Assembly (NCBI GenBank): GCA_963815455.1
Contig: CAWFGO010000001.1
Location: 448,001-512,000, forward strand
Direction of reading: 5' to 3'
Length of the DNA stretch: 64,000 nt
Source of the DNA: an uncultured Verrucomicrobiae bacterium
GTDB taxonomy: Bacteria > Verrucomicrobiota > Verrucomicrobiia > Chthoniobacterales > UBA10450
How positions within the stretch are numbered: position 1 is the first letter of the stretch; each line of letters starts with the position of its first letter. Positions 1 to 9,610 of the stretch are shown here, piece after piece. The notes below the pieces were generated by a model, which worked only from the letters and a program-made list of their open reading frames with translations, did no database searches and was not told the DNA's origin. A program made the position numbers and the translations under genes.

Positions 1-1258
1 CGTCATTGGCCCGATTACCCAAAGGCGCACCGTAGGCGCCCAGGCCCTGCGCCGCAAAAAGAATCCCGGTTTGTCCGAGCGGCCCGCCGCGATCACCGCC
101 GCGAGCGGCGGATGAATAATCGCGGATGCCCAGGAAAGCGTCGATGTAAACAACATCCTTACTTTCCGGAAGGGTAGTAGAGAGCTGCTGGAACAACAGC
201 ACACCCGTGCTAACGGCAGGCGTCTCGTGACCGAGTGCGACGGAACCGTTGACGCGTGTCGTGGAATTGATCAGACCAAAGCGCTGGATGTTGCCCAGGC
301 CGGCGTAGAAACCATCGCCGCCGGTCGCGGCCTCAGCTTTTACGTAAGCGAAATCGAGGTCGATGGTCCTGGCGGCGTAATCGGCGGTGTTGAAGAGTCC
401 GAACAATTTCGCGCTGCTTTCGCGGATATTGTTGTTCCGGTTCAACTCATTGAAGGCAAAAATGGCAGTGGTGCGCAATGAGGAAGCGCCCAGGAAGAAA
501 AGCGATGTCCGCGTTATGCCAACGGCGTCGATCACGTCCTCGTTGATCATGATGCCGTCCTGGAAACTGAGCGGCTGGCGGCCGACCGCGAAGCTGAAGT
601 CGAAGCTCTTCTTGTCGTCACGGTCGAGATTCGGGAAAAGCTCGCCAAAGTCCCCTTGAAAAAAAAGCGTGGTGACCGTTCCATTAACTTCGTCCGTGAT
701 CTTATGTTCGGGGTCGAAGCGGTAACCGCTGTAGGCGAGTCCATCGCGATCGAGGGGGCGAATGCCGACGAGCACGCGCTCGGTCGGCGTGAGATAGAGA
801 TTTCCGTAAATGTCGGCACGATTGGCCCATTCGGTGATCTGGCCGGCGCCTGAGCCATTGTCGAAAGTCTGGTAGGCGGTGCGGAGAGTGCCAAAAACGA
901 TGAAGACCGGTTGCCAGACCGCGCCGGTGGGGAGGTTAATGCCGGGAGCGATCGGGCCGCGGCCGAGAAATGGATTTTGGCCGATCTCGATGATGGGCTT
1001 GGGTCGATCAGGAAATCCTTCGAGCTTGAGCGGGACCGGGTTCTCGCTGAGAGCGCTGCCATGGTTCTGGGGCGTGCCTTGGAAGAGGCCGAAAAAACCG
1101 CTTTTCTTCTTTGGCGGAGCAGGCATTGCCATGCCGTCGGCCGTCGTCGTTGCGCTTGTAGTCGTCTCTTCTCCAGATGCGGTGTCCGCCGCCAGCGCAC
1201 TGGAGGCGCTTGTTAGGGCAAAACCGGCGGCGAAAACGGTGATCAGGATCGTGCGCAT
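1..1258 (-). CDS. Putative outer-membrane beta-barrel (porin-like) protein associated with multiheme cytochromes; 3' end lies beyond the window edge
   Basis: Translated by hand; not in the ORF track because it is open at the edge. ATG at 1258 gives MRTILITVFAAGFALTSASSALAA (Sec signal), then >400 codons with no stop to base 1, with alternating hydrophobic/aromatic strands (FDFSFAVGRQ, IDLDFAYV, VVYIDAFLG). Starts 10 bp after the stop of the pentaheme gene. Confidence 0.7.
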   Translation of the reverse strand, partial: MRTILITVFAAGFALTSASSALAADTASGEETTTSATTTADGMAMPAPPKKKSGFFGLFQGTPQNHGSALSENPVPLKLEGFPDRPKPIIEIGQNPFLGRGPIAPGINLPTGAVWQPVFIVFGTLRTAYQTFDNGSGAGQITEWANRADIYGNLYLTPTERVLVGIRPLDRDGLAYSGYRFDPEHKITDEVNGTVTTLFFQGDFGELFPNLDRDDKKSFDFSFAVGRQPLSFQDGIMINEDVIDAVGITRTSLFFLGASSLRTTAIFAFNELNRNNNIRESSAKLFGLFNTADYAARTIDLDFAYVKAEAATGGDGFYAGLGNIQRFGLINSTTRVNGSVALGHETPAVSTGVLLFQQLSTTLPESKDVVYIDAFLGIRDYSSAARGGDRGGPLGQTGILFAAQGLGAYGAPLGNRAND

Positions 1259-1268
1259 GGGCTCGCGA

Positions 1269-3512
1269 TCAATGTGGAGAAGGCGTTGCGGCCTCAGCCA
1301 CTTTTAGGGCCTGATGCGCGGCTTTTGATTCCGGCAGAAAAGGCTTTTCCGGTGGCGCCATGATTTCGTCCTCGGTCGGCTTGAGGCTAATGACCGTCGG
1401 AGCCGAAGGCAGAGTAATCGCCTTGTTCCAGAGTATTTGCGAGCGTTCGACTACACTGTCGGCAATGCCCTTGGGCGACATGTTGTAATCGAAGCCGACC
1501 TCAACGATGTCGCTGATCAGATTTACTGGAATCATCTGGGCGACGAATTTCACGTTCACTTTGTAAGGCCCCTGACCGGTCAGAAACTTGGCATCTACTT
1601 TGTAAGGCGCCCAACGATAGCCGCCCGGCGGCAATACAATGCTCTGTTTACGAGCGCCGTTCGGCCGTGCCAGCAGCGCGTCGGCGTTCGTCGCCGGCCG
1701 CACGTACGGGAGCGGATCGACGCTCTTGTTCGTGGGAAGCACCTGCACGCGCTCGCCGCCGCGGATCAGCGTGACTAAAAACTTCGATTGCAGGCTGAAG
1801 AGATATTTATCCAACGGCAACTTACGATCGTGAACGTAACTTGACTCCTCGTCGCGATAGTCGCCATTCGGATCGCGATCACCGGAAACGAAGATCACTT
1901 TGCCGCGCTGATCGGTAACCGTGACCTGGAGAAAATTGGCGCGTTCCGCATCGAAGCCGGTCGGCGTGCCGTGGCCGTCGGTGCCGTTTACCACCTTAAT
2001 CTTGAATTTGATCCCACGCGCATCGTTCCGTTGAAGGACAAAATCGTGCAATTGAAAGCCGCGCCGCAAAATTTGGTAACGCTGCAAGTTCGCCTCCTCC
2101 AGTTTCGCGAATTGATCGTCGAGAATGGCTCGCGCGTCGTATCGATCGTCGATCGATTGCCAGCGCGCCGGAAATTTGAAACCGGCCGGTGCGCTATTTT
2201 CAAAGGCATCCGTGCCCCAGCCGGCGCGATAATCGAATTGCAGCCATTCCCGCATCGTGGCGAGCGCCTGCGCCTTAACGTTAAAGGGGAACAATCCGGG
2301 ATGAATGACAGAGTAATCGGGGCCGGCAAAACGATGATCGGTCAATTTGCGCGATGGCGTGGGTTTATCGCCGACTGTGGCGGCGGGACCGAAAGCGTAA
2401 TCGGACTTCAGACCTGGGATTTTAGCCATATGACAATCCTGGCAGGTTTCGCCGCGCTTGTTAGCCTGCGAATTCTTGAATTGGGAAAATGCTTCTTCCA
2501 ACCGGAAACCGTTGAGCAAATTCACATCGTGGCAGGTGCCGCAGAAGCCCGATTTTTCCAAGGGATCGAACTTGACCACGTTCGTGTGGATAGCGCGGCC
2601 GACTTCGCCTCGTTTTGTCACGACCTGGAATTGATCGGGCTCGGAAATGACCTCTTTCAGAATCTTGTTTCCCTGCGGCCCATAGACCGGCTCGAAAAGG
2701 TCACCCTCTTGAATGGCGGTGCGCCCGCTGACCTTGCCGTAGTTGTTTTTCACCCGATGGCAGACGATGCAACTGATCCCTTCGCGGGATGTGGGATTGC
2801 GGTCCATGTTGCTGACGAAAATCGGCTCCTTTAATTGCATGCCGACCTGGGTGTGGCAACGGATGCAAAAGTCGCCGTTGCTTCCCGAGGTGCGTTTTTC
2901 GATCGTCGCCTGCATCGTGTTAAACACCGGGCTGATCTGCGCGTAGGCGTGTTGAGAAACCGACCATTGCCGGAACTGCGTGGGATGGCAGGTCGCGCAG
3001 GTCGAGGCTGATGGAAACTTGTTTTCCACGAGCAACTTTGCGTGCGCAGCAGCAGCATCTGCCGGTGGCGCGGCTGCGGTTGATCCTCCTGCCCTGGGAG
3101 GGAGCTTCAGTGGCTCCGGGGGCAGCAGGCTGTCGGGCTCGACGGGGATCTGCTCCTCGGTCCCTCCAGGCGCGAGCAGATCGTCATCCGATGAAGGCTT
3201 GGCTGCCGGGTTTGGTTTCTCAGGAACCAACAAATCGTCGTCAGATGATGAGCTTTGTCCTGGTGTTGGTGTTGCCGGTTCCAGCAAATCATCACTTGAT
3301 GTGGAAGCTGCCGCCGGACTCTCAACGGCTGAGGCCGATGGTGAACTCACCGGCGCAGGACTGGATGATTCTTCTGCCGTTTCACCCGATTTTTCCGACG
3401 TGGCTGCAGGCGTATTGGCCGCATCCTGCCCGAATGTGGTCCGGACAACCGCCGCCAGAAACAAACAGCAGCAGCAGCCGACCAAAACCGCGGTATGCCG
3501 TTGTGCGAGCAT
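1269..3512 (-). CDS. Exported pentaheme c-type cytochrome (c554-like heme domain plus C-terminal beta-rich domain)
   Basis: Five CxxCH motifs (CATCH, CIRCH, CIVCH, CGTCH, CQDCH); N-terminal signal peptide; long S/P/D-rich linker. Confidence 0.85.
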   Translation of the reverse strand: MLAQRHTAVLVGCCCCLFLAAVVRTTFGQDAANTPAATSEKSGETAEESSSPAPVSSPSASAVESPAAASTSSDDLLEPATPTPGQSSSSDDDLLVPEKPNPAAKPSSDDDLLAPGGTEEQIPVEPDSLLPPEPLKLPPRAGGSTAAAPPADAAAAHAKLLVENKFPSASTCATCHPTQFRQWSVSQHAYAQISPVFNTMQATIEKRTSGSNGDFCIRCHTQVGMQLKEPIFVSNMDRNPTSREGISCIVCHRVKNNYGKVSGRTAIQEGDLFEPVYGPQGNKILKEVISEPDQFQVVTKRGEVGRAIHTNVVKFDPLEKSGFCGTCHDVNLLNGFRLEEAFSQFKNSQANKRGETCQDCHMAKIPGLKSDYAFGPAATVGDKPTPSRKLTDHRFAGPDYSVIHPGLFPFNVKAQALATMREWLQFDYRAGWGTDAFENSAPAGFKFPARWQSIDDRYDARAILDDQFAKLEEANLQRYQILRRGFQLHDFVLQRNDARGIKFKIKVVNGTDGHGTPTGFDAERANFLQVTVTDQRGKVIFVSGDRDPNGDYRDEESSYVHDRKLPLDKYLFSLQSKFLVTLIRGGERVQVLPTNKSVDPLPYVRPATNADALLARPNGARKQSIVLPPGGYRWAPYKVDAKFLTGQGPYKVNVKFVAQMIPVNLISDIVEVGFDYNMSPKGIADSVVERSQILWNKAITLPSAPTVISLKPTEDEIMAPPEKPFLPESKAAHQALKVAEAATPSPH

Positions 3513-3665
3513 GGCCAGCCCATGATCAAGCTATCTTTCGCGACTCTGGTCAACTCGAAAATTCTTGATCGTCCAAGACAAGAAGCTTGCTCTTTAACAT
3601 CGATTGCATTACGCAGTTCTATCGCGGCAAATTGATCCTAAGAAAAAGGAGGAGGAGAATTCGTT

Positions 3666-4667
3666 ATGCATGTTCGAAGACTCAAACTCAGCGCAGCGTC
3701 GGTCGTGTTCGGGCTCGTATTGAGCAGCGGCGGCGCGTATGGCGGCCAAGTCCACGAAATTGATCCGGCAAAAGTGGTGGGCGCCACAAAATGCGGCGAG
3801 TGCCACAAATATGAAGTCGAAGCGTGGAAGCTCACTCCGCATTTCCAGACCTTCGATACCATGCATCGCAGCGCTGACGGCCAGAAAATCTCGACCGCCC
3901 TCGGGATCAAACGGATCAAATCGGAAAGCCTCTGCTTAACCTGCCATTACACTGTCCAGGCCAAGGGCGGCCAGGCAGAGCCGATCTCAGGAGTGTCTTG
4001 TGAATCGTGCCATGGCGCCGCGGCCGACTGGATTAATGTCCACAATGACAAGAAACTTTCGCGGGAGGAGCGCCGGACGAAGTCCGCCGCTGCGGGAATG
4101 ATTCGTCCCGACAATGTTGATGCGGTGGCGGCGAATTGTTATCAATGCCATCTCGTTCCTAACGAGAAATTAGTGAACACTGGTGGACACACCGCCGGCA
4201 CGCCCGGATTTGAACTGGTGGCCTGGTCGCAGGGGATGGTGCGGCACAATTTTCTCACCCCCGAGGGCGAGGAAGGCAAAACGAACAAGGAAGACGACGC
4301 CAACCGCAAACGCATGATGTTTGCCACCGGCGCGATTCTCGATCTTGAATACAGTCTCCGCGGCGTGGGCAGTGCCACCGAAAAAGCGACTTACGGCGTG
4401 ACCATGGCTCAGCGCGTTGCCGGACTAAAAAAGAAGGTCGAGGAGATCCAGAAGGCGGCACCCACTGACGAGATGGCGCAGATCATCACCACGGTCGGCG
4501 GTGTTGCCCTTAAGCTGAACAATAAGCAGCCGCTGGATGAAGCGGCGGACAAAGTGGCTGAGCTGGCCAAGAAGTTTTCGGAAAACGTGACCGGTGATAA
4601 ACTGGCGGGACTCGACCCCTTGTTACCGAAGCCAGGGCAGTATCGCGGGAAGCCGTATCAACCCTAA
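3666..4667 (+). CDS. Exported tetraheme c-type cytochrome (c554-like)
   Basis: Four CxxCH motifs (CGECH, CLTCH, CESCH, CYQCH); signal peptide; GGAGGAG SD upstream. Confidence 0.85.
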   Translation: MHVRRLKLSAASVVFGLVLSSGGAYGGQVHEIDPAKVVGATKCGECHKYEVEAWKLTPHFQTFDTMHRSADGQKISTALGIKRIKSESLCLTCHYTVQAKGGQAEPISGVSCESCHGAAADWINVHNDKKLSREERRTKSAAAGMIRPDNVDAVAANCYQCHLVPNEKLVNTGGHTAGTPGFELVAWSQGMVRHNFLTPEGEEGKTNKEDDANRKRMMFATGAILDLEYSLRGVGSATEKATYGVTMAQRVAGLKKKVEEIQKAAPTDEMAQIITTVGGVALKLNNKQPLDEAADKVAELAKKFSENVTGDKLAGLDPLLPKPGQYRGKPYQP

Positions 4668-4722
4668 ACAATTGACGGTCGCTGCTTGCCAGTTCGGGCG
4701 GCAATTGTTTCAATTGTAGATC

Positions 4723-6460
4723 GTGGCTGAATCCTTGACGCGAATCTCCCGTCCGCACCGGTGGGATGTTCCTTTCGGGGGAGCGATGTCGGATGCAGAT
4801 GTCGATCGTCTTCTCACGATTCCGCCATTTTCCACTACCGATGCCAGCCGTTTTCCGCCGGCCATTCCTCTGCACGGGGTTCTTCGCAACGACACCCGCA
4901 TTCGCAAATTCGAGCACGGTGACATTATTGTTCGTGAAGGCGATTATGGGAGCTCCGCGTTTTTTATTCTGAGCGGAGCGGTTCGAGTGGTGTTGGATTC
5001 GTTACCGGCCGAGTTGCTTGGCCGGCGCAAGCCCGAGAAAAAGAGTTTCTTTGGCTCACTGGCGCAGCTCTGGAACCGGCCCGTTTATCCCGAGGTGCGT
5101 GACTATTCGAGTAACCGAGCCGCCAGGGGCTCGGCCTCCGCCGCTGTGAAAGCCCGCCAGGCGGACGGCGAAGACATTCACATTTTTCTTCAAGATGTAC
5201 CCGGCGTATTGAAAAAGAATCGCACCGCACGAATAGGATCGGGTGAATTGTTTGGAGAGATAGCAGCTCTCAGCCGGACGCCGCGAACGGCGACTGTAAT
5301 CGCCGACGAACCGGCGGAATTACTGGAAATACGATGGCAGGGGCTACGCGAAATACGCCGTTATGCGCCGGAATGGAAAGAACATATCGATCGGCTGTAT
5401 CGGGAGCGAAGCCTCCTGGTCCATTTGCGCGAGACTCCGTTCCTGGCTGGCCTCTCGCCTGAAGCGCTTCAGGCCATCGCTGATCACACCATTTTCGAAG
5501 GTTTCGGCGACTTCGAATGGAACGTATCATACCGGACGGCTCGCGGTGGATCGGCTCAACAACGTCTTCAAAAGGAACCGATCGTGGCCCGGGAAGGTGA
5601 TTACCCCAATGGGTTAATTCTGATTCGCAGCGGCTTCGCGCGCCTCAGTCGAAAATACAATCATGGCGAACGCACGATCAGTTATCTGGGCAAGGGTGAT
5701 GTCTACGGTCTCTCGTCGCTGCTTTGCAATTCAAAGTATCCTGAACCAACCGGCCTGGAGTTCTCGCTGCGTGCCATCGGTCACGTTGACGTTCTCGTCA
5801 TCCCGACGCCCATCGTGGAAAAGTTCATCGCGCCGCGTTTTAGCGATGCCGAGGTCTCTGCTATCCGCGAGCGAACAAAGCGCCAGAGTGAGATCGACGT
5901 GGAACGCGACGCCATGGCCACCTTTGGACCGGAGATGATTGAGTTTTTAGTGGAAGAACGTTTCGTCAACGGGACGGCCACAATGTTGATCGATCTCGAT
6001 CGCTGCACGAGATGCGACGATTGCGTGCGGGCTTGCGCCGCGGCTCATGATAATAATCCGAAGTTTATCCGTCATGGCCACGCTAATAGCGGGATCATGG
6101 TAGCCAATGCCTGCATGCATTGTGTCGATCCAGTTTGCATGATCGGCTGTCCTACCGGGGCCATCCATCGTGAGTCGATCCAGGGCCAGGTTGTGATCAA
6201 TGACCTCACCTGCATCGGCTGCGCGACCTGCGCCAACAGTTGCCCGTACCGATAACATTCAAATGGTCGAGATCCGCGATCGAAACGGCAGGTTCTTTCT
6301 CGATGAAGCAACTCAGGCACCGATTTTAAAGGCGAGTAAGTGCGACCTGTGTGTGGATCAACTCGGGGGGCCGGCCTGTGTTCGGGCCTGCCCTCATGAC
6401 GCTCTGATCCGTGCCGACATGGGCGAGATCGACAAACTATCGAGGTGGATGAACCGGTGA
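4723..6460 (+). CDS. Tandem cyclic-nucleotide-binding domains fused to a DmsB/NrfC-type 4x[4Fe-4S] domain (one-base frameshift near 6250)
   Basis: IVREGDYG...FGEIAALSRTPRTATV (cNMP cassette); second degenerate cNMP domain (AREGDYPNGLILIRSG); CTRCDDCVRAC, CMHCVDPVCMIGCP, CIGCATCANSCP. After an extra C (TAC C GAT) the frame continues DNIQM...KCDLC...PACVRACP to TGA 6460. Confidence 0.8.
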
Positions 6461-7277
6461 GCCCGCTTGTTGCCCGCCGCACCGGCTTCATTGCCGGTCT
6501 CGCCGTTATCTCGGCTCTGACTCTTGCCGGATGGCAACTCCTGCGGACCGCGTTGCGACCGGATGCGACTTATACTGGCGTATCCTTCTGTTGCTGGTCC
6601 TAGCGCTCACTCTTTTCAACGCCCGGAAAAAACTGCCATTCTTGCCTCTGGTGAAGGCCGCGACCTGGCTTCAGATACATATCTACGCGGGTTGGTTCTG
6701 CCTCTTTGTTTTTCTGCTTCACATTCGTTTTCGCATCCCGACCGGAGTAATGGAAGTGACGCTGGCTGTGGTTTTTTGCGTTGTTGTTCTGAGCGGTATT
6801 TTCGGTCTCTACATTAGCCGCAATCTGCCGCCACGCATGACTGCTTCGGGCGAAGCGTTGCCTCACGAACGCATCCCTGCTTATCGCTTGCATATCCAGC
6901 ACAACGTCGAAGCCCTCATTCGCAAAGCCGAGTCCGAAACCGAATCATCGACCCTGGGCGATTTCTACGTGCAACGATTGCGCGATTTCTTCGCGCGAGT
7001 TCCGGCGGCGTTCTACGCTTTATCCGGCGCCGGCCGCGGTTTGCACACGCTATTGGCGGAGATGGAGGCCCTGGATCGATATCTAAACGAACAGGAAAAG
7101 ACCATCGCCCGTGATATTCGCGATTGGATCGAAACCAAACAGAACCTCGATTTCCAGTATGCGGCTCAGCGTTTACTGAGACTCTGGCTCTTTGTCCACA
7201 TCCCACTCACCTACAGCTTGATTTTACTCGGCGTGGCGCACGGAATTGTTGCTACGCTCTATGCGGGAAGGTTTTGA
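6457..7277 (+). CDS. Integral membrane protein with His-bearing helices (ferric-reductase/cytochrome b-like); frameshift near 6578
   Basis: GTG at 6457 overlaps the upstream TGA (GTGA). MSPLVARRTGFIAGLAVISALTLAGW joins the 6531-7277 frame. His in TM segments: WLQIHIYAG, FLLHIRF, WLFVHIPL, GVAHG. Confidence 0.7.
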
Positions 7278-7278
7278 A

Positions 7279-9570
7279 ATGCAGCGCCCGCTAGATCCGC
7301 TCGGTTTCAAACAAAATCGGTACGAGCGTCCGAACCAGGGTTGGATCTGTGGACGAGCGAGTGAAGGATCTCCTTGCCCGCTCGGACCGGACAAACACGG
7401 CAATTGTCGCGCTACGGGCCAATGTATACCCGCACGAAAGGGCGATCGATGGTTCTGCACCCGCTCCGAAGCCGATGGCGGGAAGTGCAGCGAAGGTCCG
7501 TTGCCACGCGGCGAGTGCTCGCATCCCATTCCTCCCTGCCAGCCGGTTCGCTCTCTGCGACGACTTCGGGCAGCCGGTGTTTGGATGGTCGTGGCCCTTA
7601 CGATCGGCGCGTTGTTGCTTCTCTTTAGCACTGCGTTTCGACGGGAATGGATGAATCCCGGTGAGCTTACTAATGCTCACGCCACCTCGGCGGCGAAATG
7701 CAGCGACTGTCACAGCGTCGATCTCAAAAATCATGCTTCGATCGCGGGGTTCGAAAAACGCGCGCTGGCCGATAGTGCGCTCTGTCTGAACTGCCACTCG
7801 CTGGGCGATCACCCGCTCAATCCCCATGGAGTCGTGCCTGCGTCGCTGGCTGCGCTCGATCAAAAGCTTCAACGGAATCCTGGCTCGGCCAAAGGTCCCG
7901 TTCTGCTCCAAGTCAGCCGAAGCGTCAGTGGACTCGATGCGCACTCAGGGGAAATGGCCTGCTCAACCTGCCATCAAGAACATCACGGCCGCACCTTTGA
8001 TTTAAAACGTCTTTCAAATGCGCAGTGTCAGACCTGCCATTCGGTCCAATTCGCAAGTTTCGAAAACGGACATCCGCAATTTTCCGATTATCCATATCGC
8101 CGGCGCACCCAAATCTTTTTCGATCACAATTCCCATCTGCAAAAGCACTTTGCAGAAATGAAAGAGAAAGCTCCCGGCTCGTGTCAGGTCTGTCATGCTC
8201 CAGATCCGTCCGGTCGATTTATGCAGGTGAAGAATTTCGAGGTCACCTGCGCTGGCTGCCATGGCTCGCAGATTCGTGGGGAAGGAATGACTACTAAAGG
8301 CATCGCATTTTTTACTGTCCCCGGTCTGGATATCGAAACCCTGGTGGCAAAAGGAATCAGCATTGGTCAGTGGCCAAAATTCGCCGACGGTAAAATCACG
8401 CCGTTCATGGAATTGCTGCTCAACCGCGAGCCAATAACTCGGAAGGCCTGGCAAGAACTGCAGGGAATCGATCTCCTGGACCTGAGCAAAGCCGGCTCCG
8501 GTCAAATCGCCGCCGCGGAACAGCTGGCGTGGGGTGTCAAAAGTCTCCTCTTCAATCTGATCGTCGAAGGCCAAGGCTACTTGCTGGAACAGATCAAATC
8601 GCAAATGGCACGGACCGACCAACCGGCGTTGGCCGGACTGGCCGGAGAAATTTCTCCGGCCGTCTTGCTCGCGGCGCAGAAGGATTGGATGCCTGATCTG
8701 CTTACCGAAGTCCCAAATTTTCGCAAAGGCATTAAACCGCCGCTCCCCAAACGCCCGGAACCAACTCCGAGGCCATCGCCGGTTTCGTCTCCGGCAAAAT
8801 CAGGCGGAGGAGATGAATCTCTCCTTGGGGGAGAAAGCCTCGCTTCCGGAGGCGATTTGTTAGCCGCGTCTCCCGCACCGTCCAAATCTGGATCCAAGGA
8901 TGAAGACCTTGCCGGGGGCGATCTTCTAGAGCCGGCGGCAGCAGCGAAGGCGACGCCGTCGCCTGCCGGTACGCCGCCGCCGATTGAACCGAAACAAGCG
9001 GAAGAATGGGCCGCGGCCGGCGGCTGGTATCGACCGCGCGATAGCTTCACCATTTTCTATCGTCCTTCCGGACACGCCGACGCTTTTGTGGTGGCGTGGC
9101 TGACGGCAGCGGCTCAACTCGACCGAACCACGCCGGAGGTGTTTCAAAAGCTCGCCGATCCGCAGACGCCTGGAGTCTGTATGAAGTGTCATACCGCAGA
9201 TCGGTCCGAGGAAGCCATTATGGTCAATTGGCTGCCGGCTCATCCCGAGCCTAATGCGCACTCCTTCACCATTTTCAAACACACGTCGCACTTTAGTTTG
9301 TTAGGCGATAAGGGATGCCAAACCTGCCACGGTCTCAATCCCAATTCCGGTTATCAGAAATATTTTACCGGCGGTTCCGGAGCCCCCCGCAATCCGCGCC
9401 AGTTTGAAAGTAATTTTAAGCCCATGTCCAAGGCGGTCTGTGCTGAATGCCACAGACCGCGAGTCGCCGGAGACAGATGCCTGCTCTGTCATCAATATCA
9501 TACCGGAACTTTCGCCGAAAAATTGGTCGGTGGCGCGAAAATCGAGAGCGTATCTATCAAGAGCAAGTGA
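7279..9570 (+). CDS. Membrane-anchored decaheme c-type cytochrome with an N-terminal 8-Cys domain
   Basis: Ten CxxCH motifs (CSDCH, CLNCH, CSTCH, CQTCH, CQVCH, CAGCH, CMKCH, CQTCH, CAECH, CLLCH); Cys-rich N-terminus, then a TM helix (GVWMVVALTIGALLLLF); ATG 1 bp after the previous stop. Confidence 0.85.
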   Translation: MQRPLDPLGFKQNRYERPNQGWICGRASEGSPCPLGPDKHGNCRATGQCIPARKGDRWFCTRSEADGGKCSEGPLPRGECSHPIPPCQPVRSLRRLRAAGVWMVVALTIGALLLLFSTAFRREWMNPGELTNAHATSAAKCSDCHSVDLKNHASIAGFEKRALADSALCLNCHSLGDHPLNPHGVVPASLAALDQKLQRNPGSAKGPVLLQVSRSVSGLDAHSGEMACSTCHQEHHGRTFDLKRLSNAQCQTCHSVQFASFENGHPQFSDYPYRRRTQIFFDHNSHLQKHFAEMKEKAPGSCQVCHAPDPSGRFMQVKNFEVTCAGCHGSQIRGEGMTTKGIAFFTVPGLDIETLVAKGISIGQWPKFADGKITPFMELLLNREPITRKAWQELQGIDLLDLSKAGSGQIAAAEQLAWGVKSLLFNLIVEGQGYLLEQIKSQMARTDQPALAGLAGEISPAVLLAAQKDWMPDLLTEVPNFRKGIKPPLPKRPEPTPRPSPVSSPAKSGGGDESLLGGESLASGGDLLAASPAPSKSGSKDEDLAGGDLLEPAAAAKATPSPAGTPPPIEPKQAEEWAAAGGWYRPRDSFTIFYRPSGHADAFVVAWLTAAAQLDRTTPEVFQKLADPQTPGVCMKCHTADRSEEAIMVNWLPAHPEPNAHSFTIFKHTSHFSLLGDKGCQTCHGLNPNSGYQKYFTGGSGAPRNPRQFESNFKPMSKAVCAECHRPRVAGDRCLLCHQYHTGTFAEKLVGGAKIESVSIKSK

Positions 9571-9610
9571 TTACATCCCTCGGTTACGCTGGGGGGATGA
9601 CGGGAATTTG

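What the first reader, a model, noticed from the sequence alone, without database searches (positions are those of the whole stretch)
1..9570. Candidate cyclic-nucleotide-gated trans-envelope electron conduit: porin + 19 hemes + cytochrome b-like protein + cNMP-[4Fe-4S] protein
Seen: two divergent, tightly packed units encode a predicted OM beta-barrel, 5-, 4- and 10-CxxCH cytochromes, a membrane protein with four His-bearing helices, and a signal-less protein with two cNMP-binding domains fused to four [4Fe-4S] motifs. Known: porin + multiheme pairs (MtrAB-type) and DmsB/NrfC-type Fe-S subunits with membrane partners move electrons across membranes. Inference: a complete cytoplasm-to-surface wire whose cytoplasmic end is controlled by cAMP/cGMP. 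I see no catalytic molybdopterin or flavin subunit in the window and do not recognise this as a characterised system.
Basis: partly seen in the sequence, partly recalled or inferred. Interest (0 to 1): 0.85.

Follow-up and report, generated by a model that had tools for sequence, protein, structure and literature searches.

The report
Ptd/PCC4 pore-capping multiheme electron chain
These genes are a copy of an already named but untested seven-gene set (Ptd/PCC4) that likely carries electrons from NAD(P)H across the inner membrane to a five-heme protein predicted to cap the inner mouth of a narrow outer-membrane pore, where it would reduce a small incoming molecule rather than wire electrons to the cell surface.

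Summary
The genes are real, but the system is already described: PCC4 (PMC5566968) = ptdABCDEFG (bioRxiv 2023.11.21.568154), function untested. This scan has met it before in other genomes. The 'missing' flavin subunit (ptdC: membrane anchor, FAD/NAD, 2Fe-2S) lies 280 bases outside the window. All seven genes occur in 31 of 48 well-flanked related loci. Frameshifts in ptdE and ptdF are probably assembly errors: 27 of 152 control genes are split too. Against an MtrAB-type wire: PtdB models as a barrel of about 18 strands like OprD/MOMP/AlgE, against 26 in MtrB. PtdA is predicted to bind it (score 0.92, best control 0.00; mark reached by 116/157 solved, 2/215 mismatched pairs), with heme-free loops in the lumen and the heme-2 region at the mouth. 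PtdA has the fold of c552 and the polysulfide reductase MccSep, but no catalytic Cys/Sec; a near-invariant Glu stands there. Best reading: an outward NAD(P)H-fed chain ending in a porin-fed periplasmic reductase of unknown substrate. One cNMP site is intact (78/78), so binding is likely; gating is unshown.

The parts
1..1258 (-). ptdB, outer-membrane beta-barrel of about 18 strands, 502 aa; continues 250 bases past the window's left edge (L001:9750-11258) and ends in Phe. It is followed 30 bases on, wholly outside the window, by the seventh gene ptdC (G000:C1:446470-447720; L001:8470-9720, - strand): 416 aa, N-terminal membrane helix + FAD + NAD + 2Fe-2S reductase, likely the NAD(P)H entry point
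   Evidence: ptdB: model pLDDT 89.5; best folds OpdQ Z 26.4 (rmsd 3.0, 320 aligned), MOMP Z 26.0 (3.1, 335), AlgE Z 23.4 (3.2, 330); no Pfam or NCBIfam family. ptdC; 2Fe-2S motif in 60 of 61 and N-terminal hydrophobic segment in 60 of 61 full-length homologs
1269..3512 (-). ptdA, exported pentaheme cytochrome c with C-terminal Ig-like domain (747 aa); c552/MccSep fold
   Evidence: (5ZE8 Z 21.5, rmsd 3.9, 353 aligned)
2853..2867 (-). PtdA heme-2 motif (CIRCH, residues 216-220); its flanks contact PtdB in the predicted complex
   Evidence: 19 interface residues within 12 residues of this motif, 0 near heme 1
2496..2498 (-). PtdA Glu339, at or next to the position of the heme-2 Cys ligand of MccSep
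   Evidence: Glu in 115 of 116 aligned rows; Cys between motifs 4 and 5 in 0 of 116
1620..1778 (-). PtdA heme-free loops (residues 579-631) predicted to insert into the PtdB lumen
   Evidence: contact lists; lumen and side assignment inferred from the strand pattern
3513..3665 (.). divergent intergenic region with two conserved elements (GTCAA at 3549, CTTGC at 3586) resembling back-to-back -35 boxes
   Evidence: alignment of 12 loci, sequence; promoter role is inference
3666..4667 (+). ptdD, tetraheme cytochrome of the c554 Pfam family (333 aa)
4723..6460 (+). ptdE, two cNMP-binding domains + four [4Fe-4S] motifs, no signal peptide; one extra base near 6250 splits it in this assembly
5251..5298 (+). 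intact phosphate-binding cassette of cNMP domain A (G178, E179, R188)
   Evidence: G, E and R in 78 of 78 homologs that cover the region; 2 of 80 are fragments
5704..5775 (+). degenerate cassette of cNMP domain B (no G-E...R pattern)
6457..7277 (+). ptdF, five-helix inner-membrane protein with two W-x3-H-x13-H motifs and SGxxG, predicted diheme b; one base missing near 6583 in this assembly
   Evidence: both motifs in 76 of 79 homologs, SGxxG in 73 of 79
7279..9570 (+). ptdG, inner-membrane-anchored decaheme cytochrome c; ten conserved distal His, so likely an all bis-His wire
7348..7539 (+). PtdG N-terminal domain with 8 Cys in two repeats, before the membrane helix (predicted cytoplasmic; possible metal or Fe-S site)
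   Evidence: all 8 Cys in 67 of 67 aligned rows; no family found

Best explanation
The seven genes encode a redox chain that likely runs outward: PtdC would take electrons from NAD(P)H, PtdE would relay them through four Fe-S clusters under likely cAMP/cGMP influence, PtdF would carry them across the inner membrane on two predicted b hemes, and PtdG and PtdD would pass them to PtdA, which is predicted to cap the periplasmic mouth of the narrow barrel PtdB and would reduce a small soluble substrate arriving through it. Shown: domains, motifs, conservation and linkage. Predicted: both folds and the PtdA-PtdB contact. Inferred: direction of flow, order of carriers, catalysis at PtdA heme 2, and any effect of cyclic nucleotide. 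The substrate is not identified. My guess is a small oxidant such as an N, S or Se oxyanion, a metal chelate or a quinone shuttle.
For: PtdC has FAD, NAD and 2Fe-2S domains. Its top NCBIfam matches, all below cut-off, are flavohemoprotein, PaaE and BenC, reductases that pass electrons from NAD(P)H onward (recalled). PtdF carries the two HX13H motifs that PMC5566968 links to ferric-reductase/NOX diheme domains. C, E, F and G are the most constant genes: 45, 48, 47 and 47 of 48 well-flanked loci. A and B occur together in 31 of those 48 and never singly. PtdB resembles small-solute channels. PtdA-PtdB complex: score 0.92, best of 3 controls 0.00, runs agreeing in at least 95% of contacts, partner pLDDT at least 90; the mark was reached by 116 of 157 solved and 2 of 215 mismatched pairs. 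The heme-2 region touches the barrel and heme 1 does not. In the homolog MccSep, heme 2 is the active site and heme 1 the proposed electron entry. MccSep is periplasmic and encoded near the porin ExtI, whose loss lowers selenite/tellurite reduction. For signalling control: intact cassette A, 13 cyclase-domain matches over the cut-off in this genome, and FHA domains fused to PtdC in 5 of 7 long homologs scanned and to PtdE in 9 of 27 longer homologs.
Against: No experiment exists in what I could read. PtdA lacks MccSep's Cys and Sec and has two extra conserved His (His157, His404) that could make heme 2 bis-His and non-catalytic. The PtdA-MccSep match is weak by sequence (E 4e-4), and the Cys-to-Glu equivalence is uncertain by one residue. 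66 of 116 interface residues come from PtdA's heme-free domain and reach the lumen, so the pore may be plugged rather than open. Interface residues are not more conserved than the rest of PtdA (0.62 against 0.67). The models carry no hemes and I could not inspect coordinates. PtdF matched no solved structure by profile. PCC4 subgroup I lacks the Fe-S gene, so PtdE is not obligatory. The published PCC4 model runs inward.
Confidence: 0.5

Rival explanations
1. MtrAB-like outward conduit: a cytochrome threads PtdB and delivers electrons to solids or humic material at the cell surface.
For: Porin beside multihemes; 19 hemes; both papers raise extracellular electron transfer. PtdA binds PtdB in the model. 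PHC-family hemes superimpose on an archaeal nanowire cytochrome.
Against: About 18 strands against 26 in MtrB, whose roughly 30 A aperture is what admits MtrA. Only heme-free loops appear to enter the lumen. PCC4 has no extracellular cytochrome. The genome has a separate DmsE-like cytochrome beside a 787-aa heme-free gene (no PF11854 match).
Confidence: 0.17
2. Inward chain: PtdA oxidises an external donor such as Fe(II), Mn(II) or a sulfur species, and electrons go to the quinone pool or to NAD+ (the PCC4 model of PMC5566968).
For: PCC4 occurs in Zetaproteobacteria and Hyphomicrobium; PtdF resembles cytochrome b.
Against: The linked cytoplasmic partner is an NAD(P)H-type reductase, and no energy-coupling subunit for reverse flow was seen among conserved neighbours. 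Carriers span many lineages not known for metal oxidation (physiology recalled).
Confidence: 0.13
3. Mainly a signalling or redox-poising device: low flux, with PtdE (cNMP, sometimes FHA) and the PtdG Cys domain reporting periplasmic redox state, and PtdB only anchoring PtdA.
For: Repeated FHA fusions; a lumen possibly filled by PtdA loops; CEFG pairs with other outer modules.
Against: No output domain (DNA-binding, kinase, cyclase) among the seven genes; 19 hemes are costly for a sensor; ptdAB are highly transcribed in marine MAGs.
Confidence: 0.12
4. This copy is decaying: ptdE and ptdF are true pseudogenes.
For: Two frameshifts. The cluster is patchy: multi-kb DNA matches in 6 of 60 relatives, none in the one same-genus genome; PtdB profile in 2 of 200 phylum genomes. 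A first, less sensitive control found 0 splits in 20 rows outside the cluster.
Against: 27 of 152 control genes are split, among them DnaE, two tRNA ligases, CarB and PlsX; about 1.7 breaks are expected in 10.9 kb, 2 seen. All cofactor ligands are retained.
Confidence: 0.08

Closest known systems
ptdABCDEFG operon (bioRxiv 10.1101/2023.11.21.568154; passages read)
   Same: Same seven products: pentaheme with beta-sandwich, porin, FAD/NAD(P) oxidoreductase, tetraheme, cNMP-Fe-S protein, ferric-reductase-like membrane protein, decaheme; same PtdA homolog (T. tepidum c552). The order ABCDEFG occurs in 10 of 48 well-flanked loci.
   Different: Here ptdABC is inverted and divergent, as in 13 of 48 loci, all Verrucomicrobiota by record title. 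PtdE has four cluster motifs (78 of 80 homologs), not the two stated in the preprint. The passages read give no mechanism.
PCC4 subgroup II (He et al. 2017, PMC5566968; passages and part 5 of 9 read)
   Same: Porin + 4-, 5- and 10-heme cytochromes + five-helix IMP with two WX3HX13H motifs and SGXXG + pfam13247 Fe-S gene upstream of the IMP.
   Different: The paper models inward Fe(II)-to-quinone flow through an MtoAB-like conduit and does not mention the cNMP domains in the passages read. My models argue against a cytochrome-filled barrel.
MccSep (ExtKL) polysulfide reductase with porin ExtI of Geobacter sulfurreducens (10.1101/2025.11.18.688581, passages; PMC5877670, abstract; PMC11976967, passages)
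   Same: Pentaheme + Ig-like fold, periplasmic, encoded near a porin: the best 'works like' model.
   Different: PtdA has no Cys ligand segment and Phe at the Sec position; no rhodanese in the cluster; electrons likely come from NAD(P)H. No ExtI-PtdB homology was tested.
Penta-heme cytochrome c552 of Thermochromatium tepidum (PDB 5ZE8)
   Same: Only clear structural match of PtdA (Foldseek E 1e-13; Z 21.5, rmsd 3.9, 353 aligned).
   Different: 15-20% identity; function unassigned; PtdA has large extra loops that contact PtdB.
MtrAB/MtoAB/PioAB conduits (PMC7198977, passages)
   Same: Barrel plus multiheme partner at the outer membrane.
   Different: 26-strand sheath around a decaheme wire, against an OprD-class barrel capped by a globular pentaheme. 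The decaheme here is anchored in the inner membrane.
Fre/MsrQ, ferric reductase and NOX diheme systems (recalled; FRD comparison from PMC5566968)
   Same: NAD(P)H flavoreductase feeding a five-helix diheme membrane protein.
   Different: Added cNMP-4x[4Fe-4S] subunit and multiheme acceptors; no profile match of PtdF to solved structures.

Membership tests
PCC4 / ptdABCDEFG | Porin gene with three multiheme cytochromes of 5, 4 and 10 hemes | tested here: met
PCC4 / ptdABCDEFG | IMP with five helices, two WX3HX13H motifs and SGXXG | tested here: met
   motifs present in the window ORF; five helices in homolog L005; first helix split off here by a frameshift
PCC4 / ptdABCDEFG | [quoted passage not shown] | tested here: met
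   L001:8470-9720, just outside the window
PCC4 / ptdABCDEFG | cNMP-domain Fe-S protein (pfam13247) directly upstream of the IMP | tested here: met
PCC4 / ptdABCDEFG | Direct sequence homology to the proteins listed in the two papers | not testable with these tools
   PCC4 supplementary Table 5 held no rows as text; bioRxiv supplements are closed. Indirect link: shared PtdA homolog 5ZE8 and the same taxa among my loci
MtrAB-type porin-cytochrome conduit | 26-strand barrel wide enough to sheathe a cytochrome | tested here: not met
   502-aa protein with about 18 membrane strands by my count of the model's DSSP; MtrB figures
MtrAB-type porin-cytochrome conduit | MtrA/DmsE-type periplasmic decaheme as the porin's partner | tested here: not met
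   the gene tied to the porin is the pentaheme; PtdG has a membrane anchor and no TIGR03508 match
MtrAB-type porin-cytochrome conduit | Heme chain crossing the outer membrane | tested here: inconclusive
   contacts suggest only heme-free loops enter; models lack hemes; PtdD and PtdG were not docked to PtdB
MccSep/ExtKL polysulfide reductases | Pentaheme + C-terminal Ig-like fold | tested here: met
MccSep/ExtKL polysulfide reductases | Cys distal ligand of heme 2 and Sec/Cys in the D-G-U-P loop | tested here: not met
   0 of 116 rows have Cys between motifs 4 and 5; Phe (108) or Leu (8) at the Sec position; NF040886 score 32.5 against cut-off 250
Ligand-binding cNMP domain (CRP/PKA type) | Phosphate-binding cassette G-E-x-A-L...R (motif recalled) | tested here: met
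   domain A: 78 of 78; domain B lacks it
Ligand-binding cNMP domain (CRP/PKA type) | Measured cAMP/cGMP binding and allosteric effect | not testable with these tools
   needs experiment
Ferric-reductase-like diheme b domain | Four His in two HX13H motifs on helices 3 and 5 | tested here: met
Ferric-reductase-like diheme b domain | Profile or structural match to PF01794/MsrQ/NOX | tested here: inconclusive
   only weak DUF4405 and cytochrome b561 hits; no PDB profile hit; PtdF was not folded

The most novel reading that the evidence does not exclude
PtdAB is a new kind of porin-coupled enzyme: a pentaheme with a Glu-lined heme-2 site docked on the inner mouth of its own substrate channel. It is fed from cytoplasmic NAD(P)H without quinones through a ferredoxin whose electron flow is switched directly by cAMP or cGMP.
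Probability: 0.18. Interest if true: 0.82.

Novelty: new member of a known kind. Interest (0 to 1): 0.45.

Why it matters
The cluster is widespread (421 relatives of PtdE in the GTDB species collection) and has been filed as a candidate extracellular-electron-transfer conduit since 2017, with no test found in my searches. If PtdA caps rather than threads its barrel, counting PCC4/ptd genes as markers of metal respiration or oxidation would be misleading, and the question becomes which small substrate it reduces. An intact cNMP pocket on an Fe-S subunit offers a simple test of direct second-messenger control of electron transfer. This particular copy adds little beyond another Verrucomicrobia-type member from an error-prone assembly.

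Tried and rejected
No sequencing run was listed for 3600-9600, so the frameshifts and expression could not be checked on reads. The first frameshift control (0 of 20 rows outside the cluster) also missed the ptdF break and was replaced by the larger control; 16 of its 27 split genes were scanned against Pfam. The Verrucomicrobia porin-octaheme cluster of PMC5615132 (passages) was considered and rejected: at least 20 strands and an 8-heme neighbour do not fit. PMC6344600 (part 1 of 4 and passages) added nothing specific. PtdB has no Pfam, NCBIfam or PDB sequence match; Atlas neighbours were unnamed apart from one cluster with 31% Alginate_exp. MtrB was not among the listed fold matches, which does not exclude it. 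The PtdG Cys domain gave no usable hit. The c552 paper (PubMed 29691716) is not held. Literature searches: 'ptdABCDEFG' gave 1 paper; PCC4 + porin + cytochrome gave 2, of which PMC13264449 was seen as a listing only; the cNMP/Fe-S searches gave 0, 1 and 1, the one being the ptd preprint. I found no experimental study in this library, which lacks most subscription journals. NADH versus NADPH preference of PtdC was not determined.
Full report
What is there. The six ORFs lie at the stated places, with 5, 4 and 10 CxxCH motifs, far above shuffled controls. The window edge cuts the barrel gene: it is 502 aa, and 30 bases downstream lies a 416-aa gene with FAD-binding, NAD-binding and 2Fe-2S domains and an N-terminal hydrophobic helix. 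The cNMP-Fe-S gene has one extra base near 6250 and the membrane gene lacks one near 6583; 79 of 80 homologs of the former are one ORF. The assembly is error-prone: 27 of 152 control genes from two relatives hit split frames in this genome, including DnaE, two tRNA ligases, CarB and PlsX. That rate predicts about 1.7 breaks in the cluster. A smaller, less sensitive control had found 0 in 20 rows, and no reads were listed, so assembly error is likely, not proven.

Conservation. A scan of GTDB species genomes found 421 relatives of the cNMP-Fe-S protein; the best 80 loci were fetched and span Verrucomicrobiota, Planctomycetota, Alpha- and Gammaproteobacteria, Nitrospirales, SAR324, Myxococcota and others. 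Of the 80, 48 had at least 7 kb upstream and 4 kb downstream. Of these, 31 hold all seven genes: 13 in the window's divergent arrangement and 10 in one direction. The pentaheme and barrel genes always occur together in these 48; the 6 of 80 loci with only one of them have under 3.6 kb upstream. The set is patchy near this genome: multi-kb DNA matches in 6 of 60 relatives, and a barrel match in 2 of 200 phylum genomes.

What it is. My paper search listed bioRxiv 10.1101/2023.11.21.568154, and earlier scan notes named it as the match. Its passages describe ptdABCDEFG with exactly these seven products and call the function completely unknown. PMC5566968 described the same content in 2017 as PCC4: porin, 4-, 5- and 10-heme cytochromes, and a five-helix membrane protein with two WX3HX13H motifs and SGXXG. 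Those motifs are present here and in 76 and 73 of 79 homologs. Membership rests on gene content and motifs.

Outer end. PtdB folds confidently (pLDDT 89.5) into a barrel of about 18 membrane strands by my count. Its best matches are OprD/Occ channels, Campylobacter MOMP and AlgE, with Z 23-26 over 320-335 residues. MtrB has 26 strands and a roughly 30 A aperture to hold MtrA. PtdA matches only the pentaheme c552 5ZE8 clearly and, weakly by profile, MccSep, a periplasmic polysulfide reductase whose heme 2 is the His/Cys active site beside a Sec. PtdA has no Cys in that segment (0 of 116), a Glu in 115 of 116, and Phe or Leu at the Sec position. The PtdA-PtdB complex scored 0.92 against a best control of 0.00, with runs agreeing in at least 95% of contacts and partner pLDDT at least 90; that mark was reached by 116 of 157 solved and 2 of 215 mismatched pairs, counts that hold only roughly with my own alignments. 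This supports binding; it does not show it. PtdB has no PDB sequence match, so recall of a solved complex is not evident. The contacts on PtdB are its N-terminal arm, the short turns and alternating strand residues up to the C-terminus, which I read as the periplasmic mouth and lumen, since barrel termini face the periplasm (general knowledge). On PtdA, 66 of 116 contact residues belong to the heme-free domain; 19 flank the heme-2 motif and none flank heme 1. So PtdA appears to cap the pore with the MccSep-equivalent catalytic heme nearest to it. Against this reading: the lumen may be plugged, two extra conserved His could saturate heme 2, the interface is no more conserved than the rest of PtdA, and the models have no hemes.

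Inner end. PtdC resembles NAD(P)H-oxidising reductase subunits (all below cut-off). PtdE has four cluster motifs in 78 of 80 homologs, and its Fe-S part resembles HycB and NrfC subunits. PtdF has ferric-reductase-like His motifs but no match to solved structures. PtdG has ten conserved distal His, a membrane anchor and eight invariant N-terminal Cys of no known family. Outward flow from NAD(P)H is therefore my inference; the PCC4 paper drew inward flow. On gating: cassette A keeps G178, E179 and R188 in 78 of 78 covering homologs while cassette B is degenerate, the genome has 13 cyclase-domain matches over the cut-off among 14, and FHA domains are fused to PtdC (5 of 7 long homologs scanned) or PtdE (9 of 27 longer homologs). 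Binding of a cyclic nucleotide is likely. Control of electron flow is untested, and PCC4 subgroup I lacks this gene.

Verdict. A real, conserved, already named and untested system; this is a new member of it. Interest 0.45.

Noticed in passing
G000:C1:963301-967862 (L109:802-5360): A second cNMP-[4Fe-4S] protein (874 aa) with an N-terminal 2Fe-2S/4Fe-4S region and two cassettes that both look canonical by eye. It follows a fused NuoE/NuoF-like FMN gene and lies beside nuo-like genes: a cNMP-ferredoxin with a different NADH input.
   Followed up: partly
G000:C1:1245978-1248493 (L111): A stand-alone PtdF-like membrane gene plus decaheme, with no porin gene seen beside it.
   Followed up: partly
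G000:C1:1565152-1580985 (partly L110): DmsE-like 7-motif cytochrome next to a 787-aa heme-free gene ending in Phe (possible large barrel; no PF11854 match), further 6- and 9-heme genes, a CcsA match and oxidase-like genes: a second candidate porin-cytochrome locus.
   Followed up: partly
L077:6616-19456 and five similar loci (L042, L061, L062, L071, L082): ptdCEFG with a shorter decaheme and no ptdAB. In L077 it is followed by an HbpS-like gene, an 809-aa barrel-like gene and a large multiheme, so the inner module may pair with another outer module.
   Followed up: partly
L032, L036, L038, L040, L043 (ptdC) and L035 (ptdE): FHA domains inserted at different positions of the reductase or the cNMP-Fe-S protein.
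   Followed up: partly
window:12597-12707: An 8-base tandem repeat (TTCAGAGC, 14 copies) between a sigma-factor-like gene and an RHS-like gene.
   Followed up: no
window:12872-19601 and L001:439-5246: RHS/YD-repeat-like genes (label by eye) in pieces on both sides of the cluster, some probably split by assembly errors.
   Followed up: no
whole assembly G000: About one frameshift per 6 kb of coding sequence, so any pseudogene call in this genome is suspect.
   Followed up: yes
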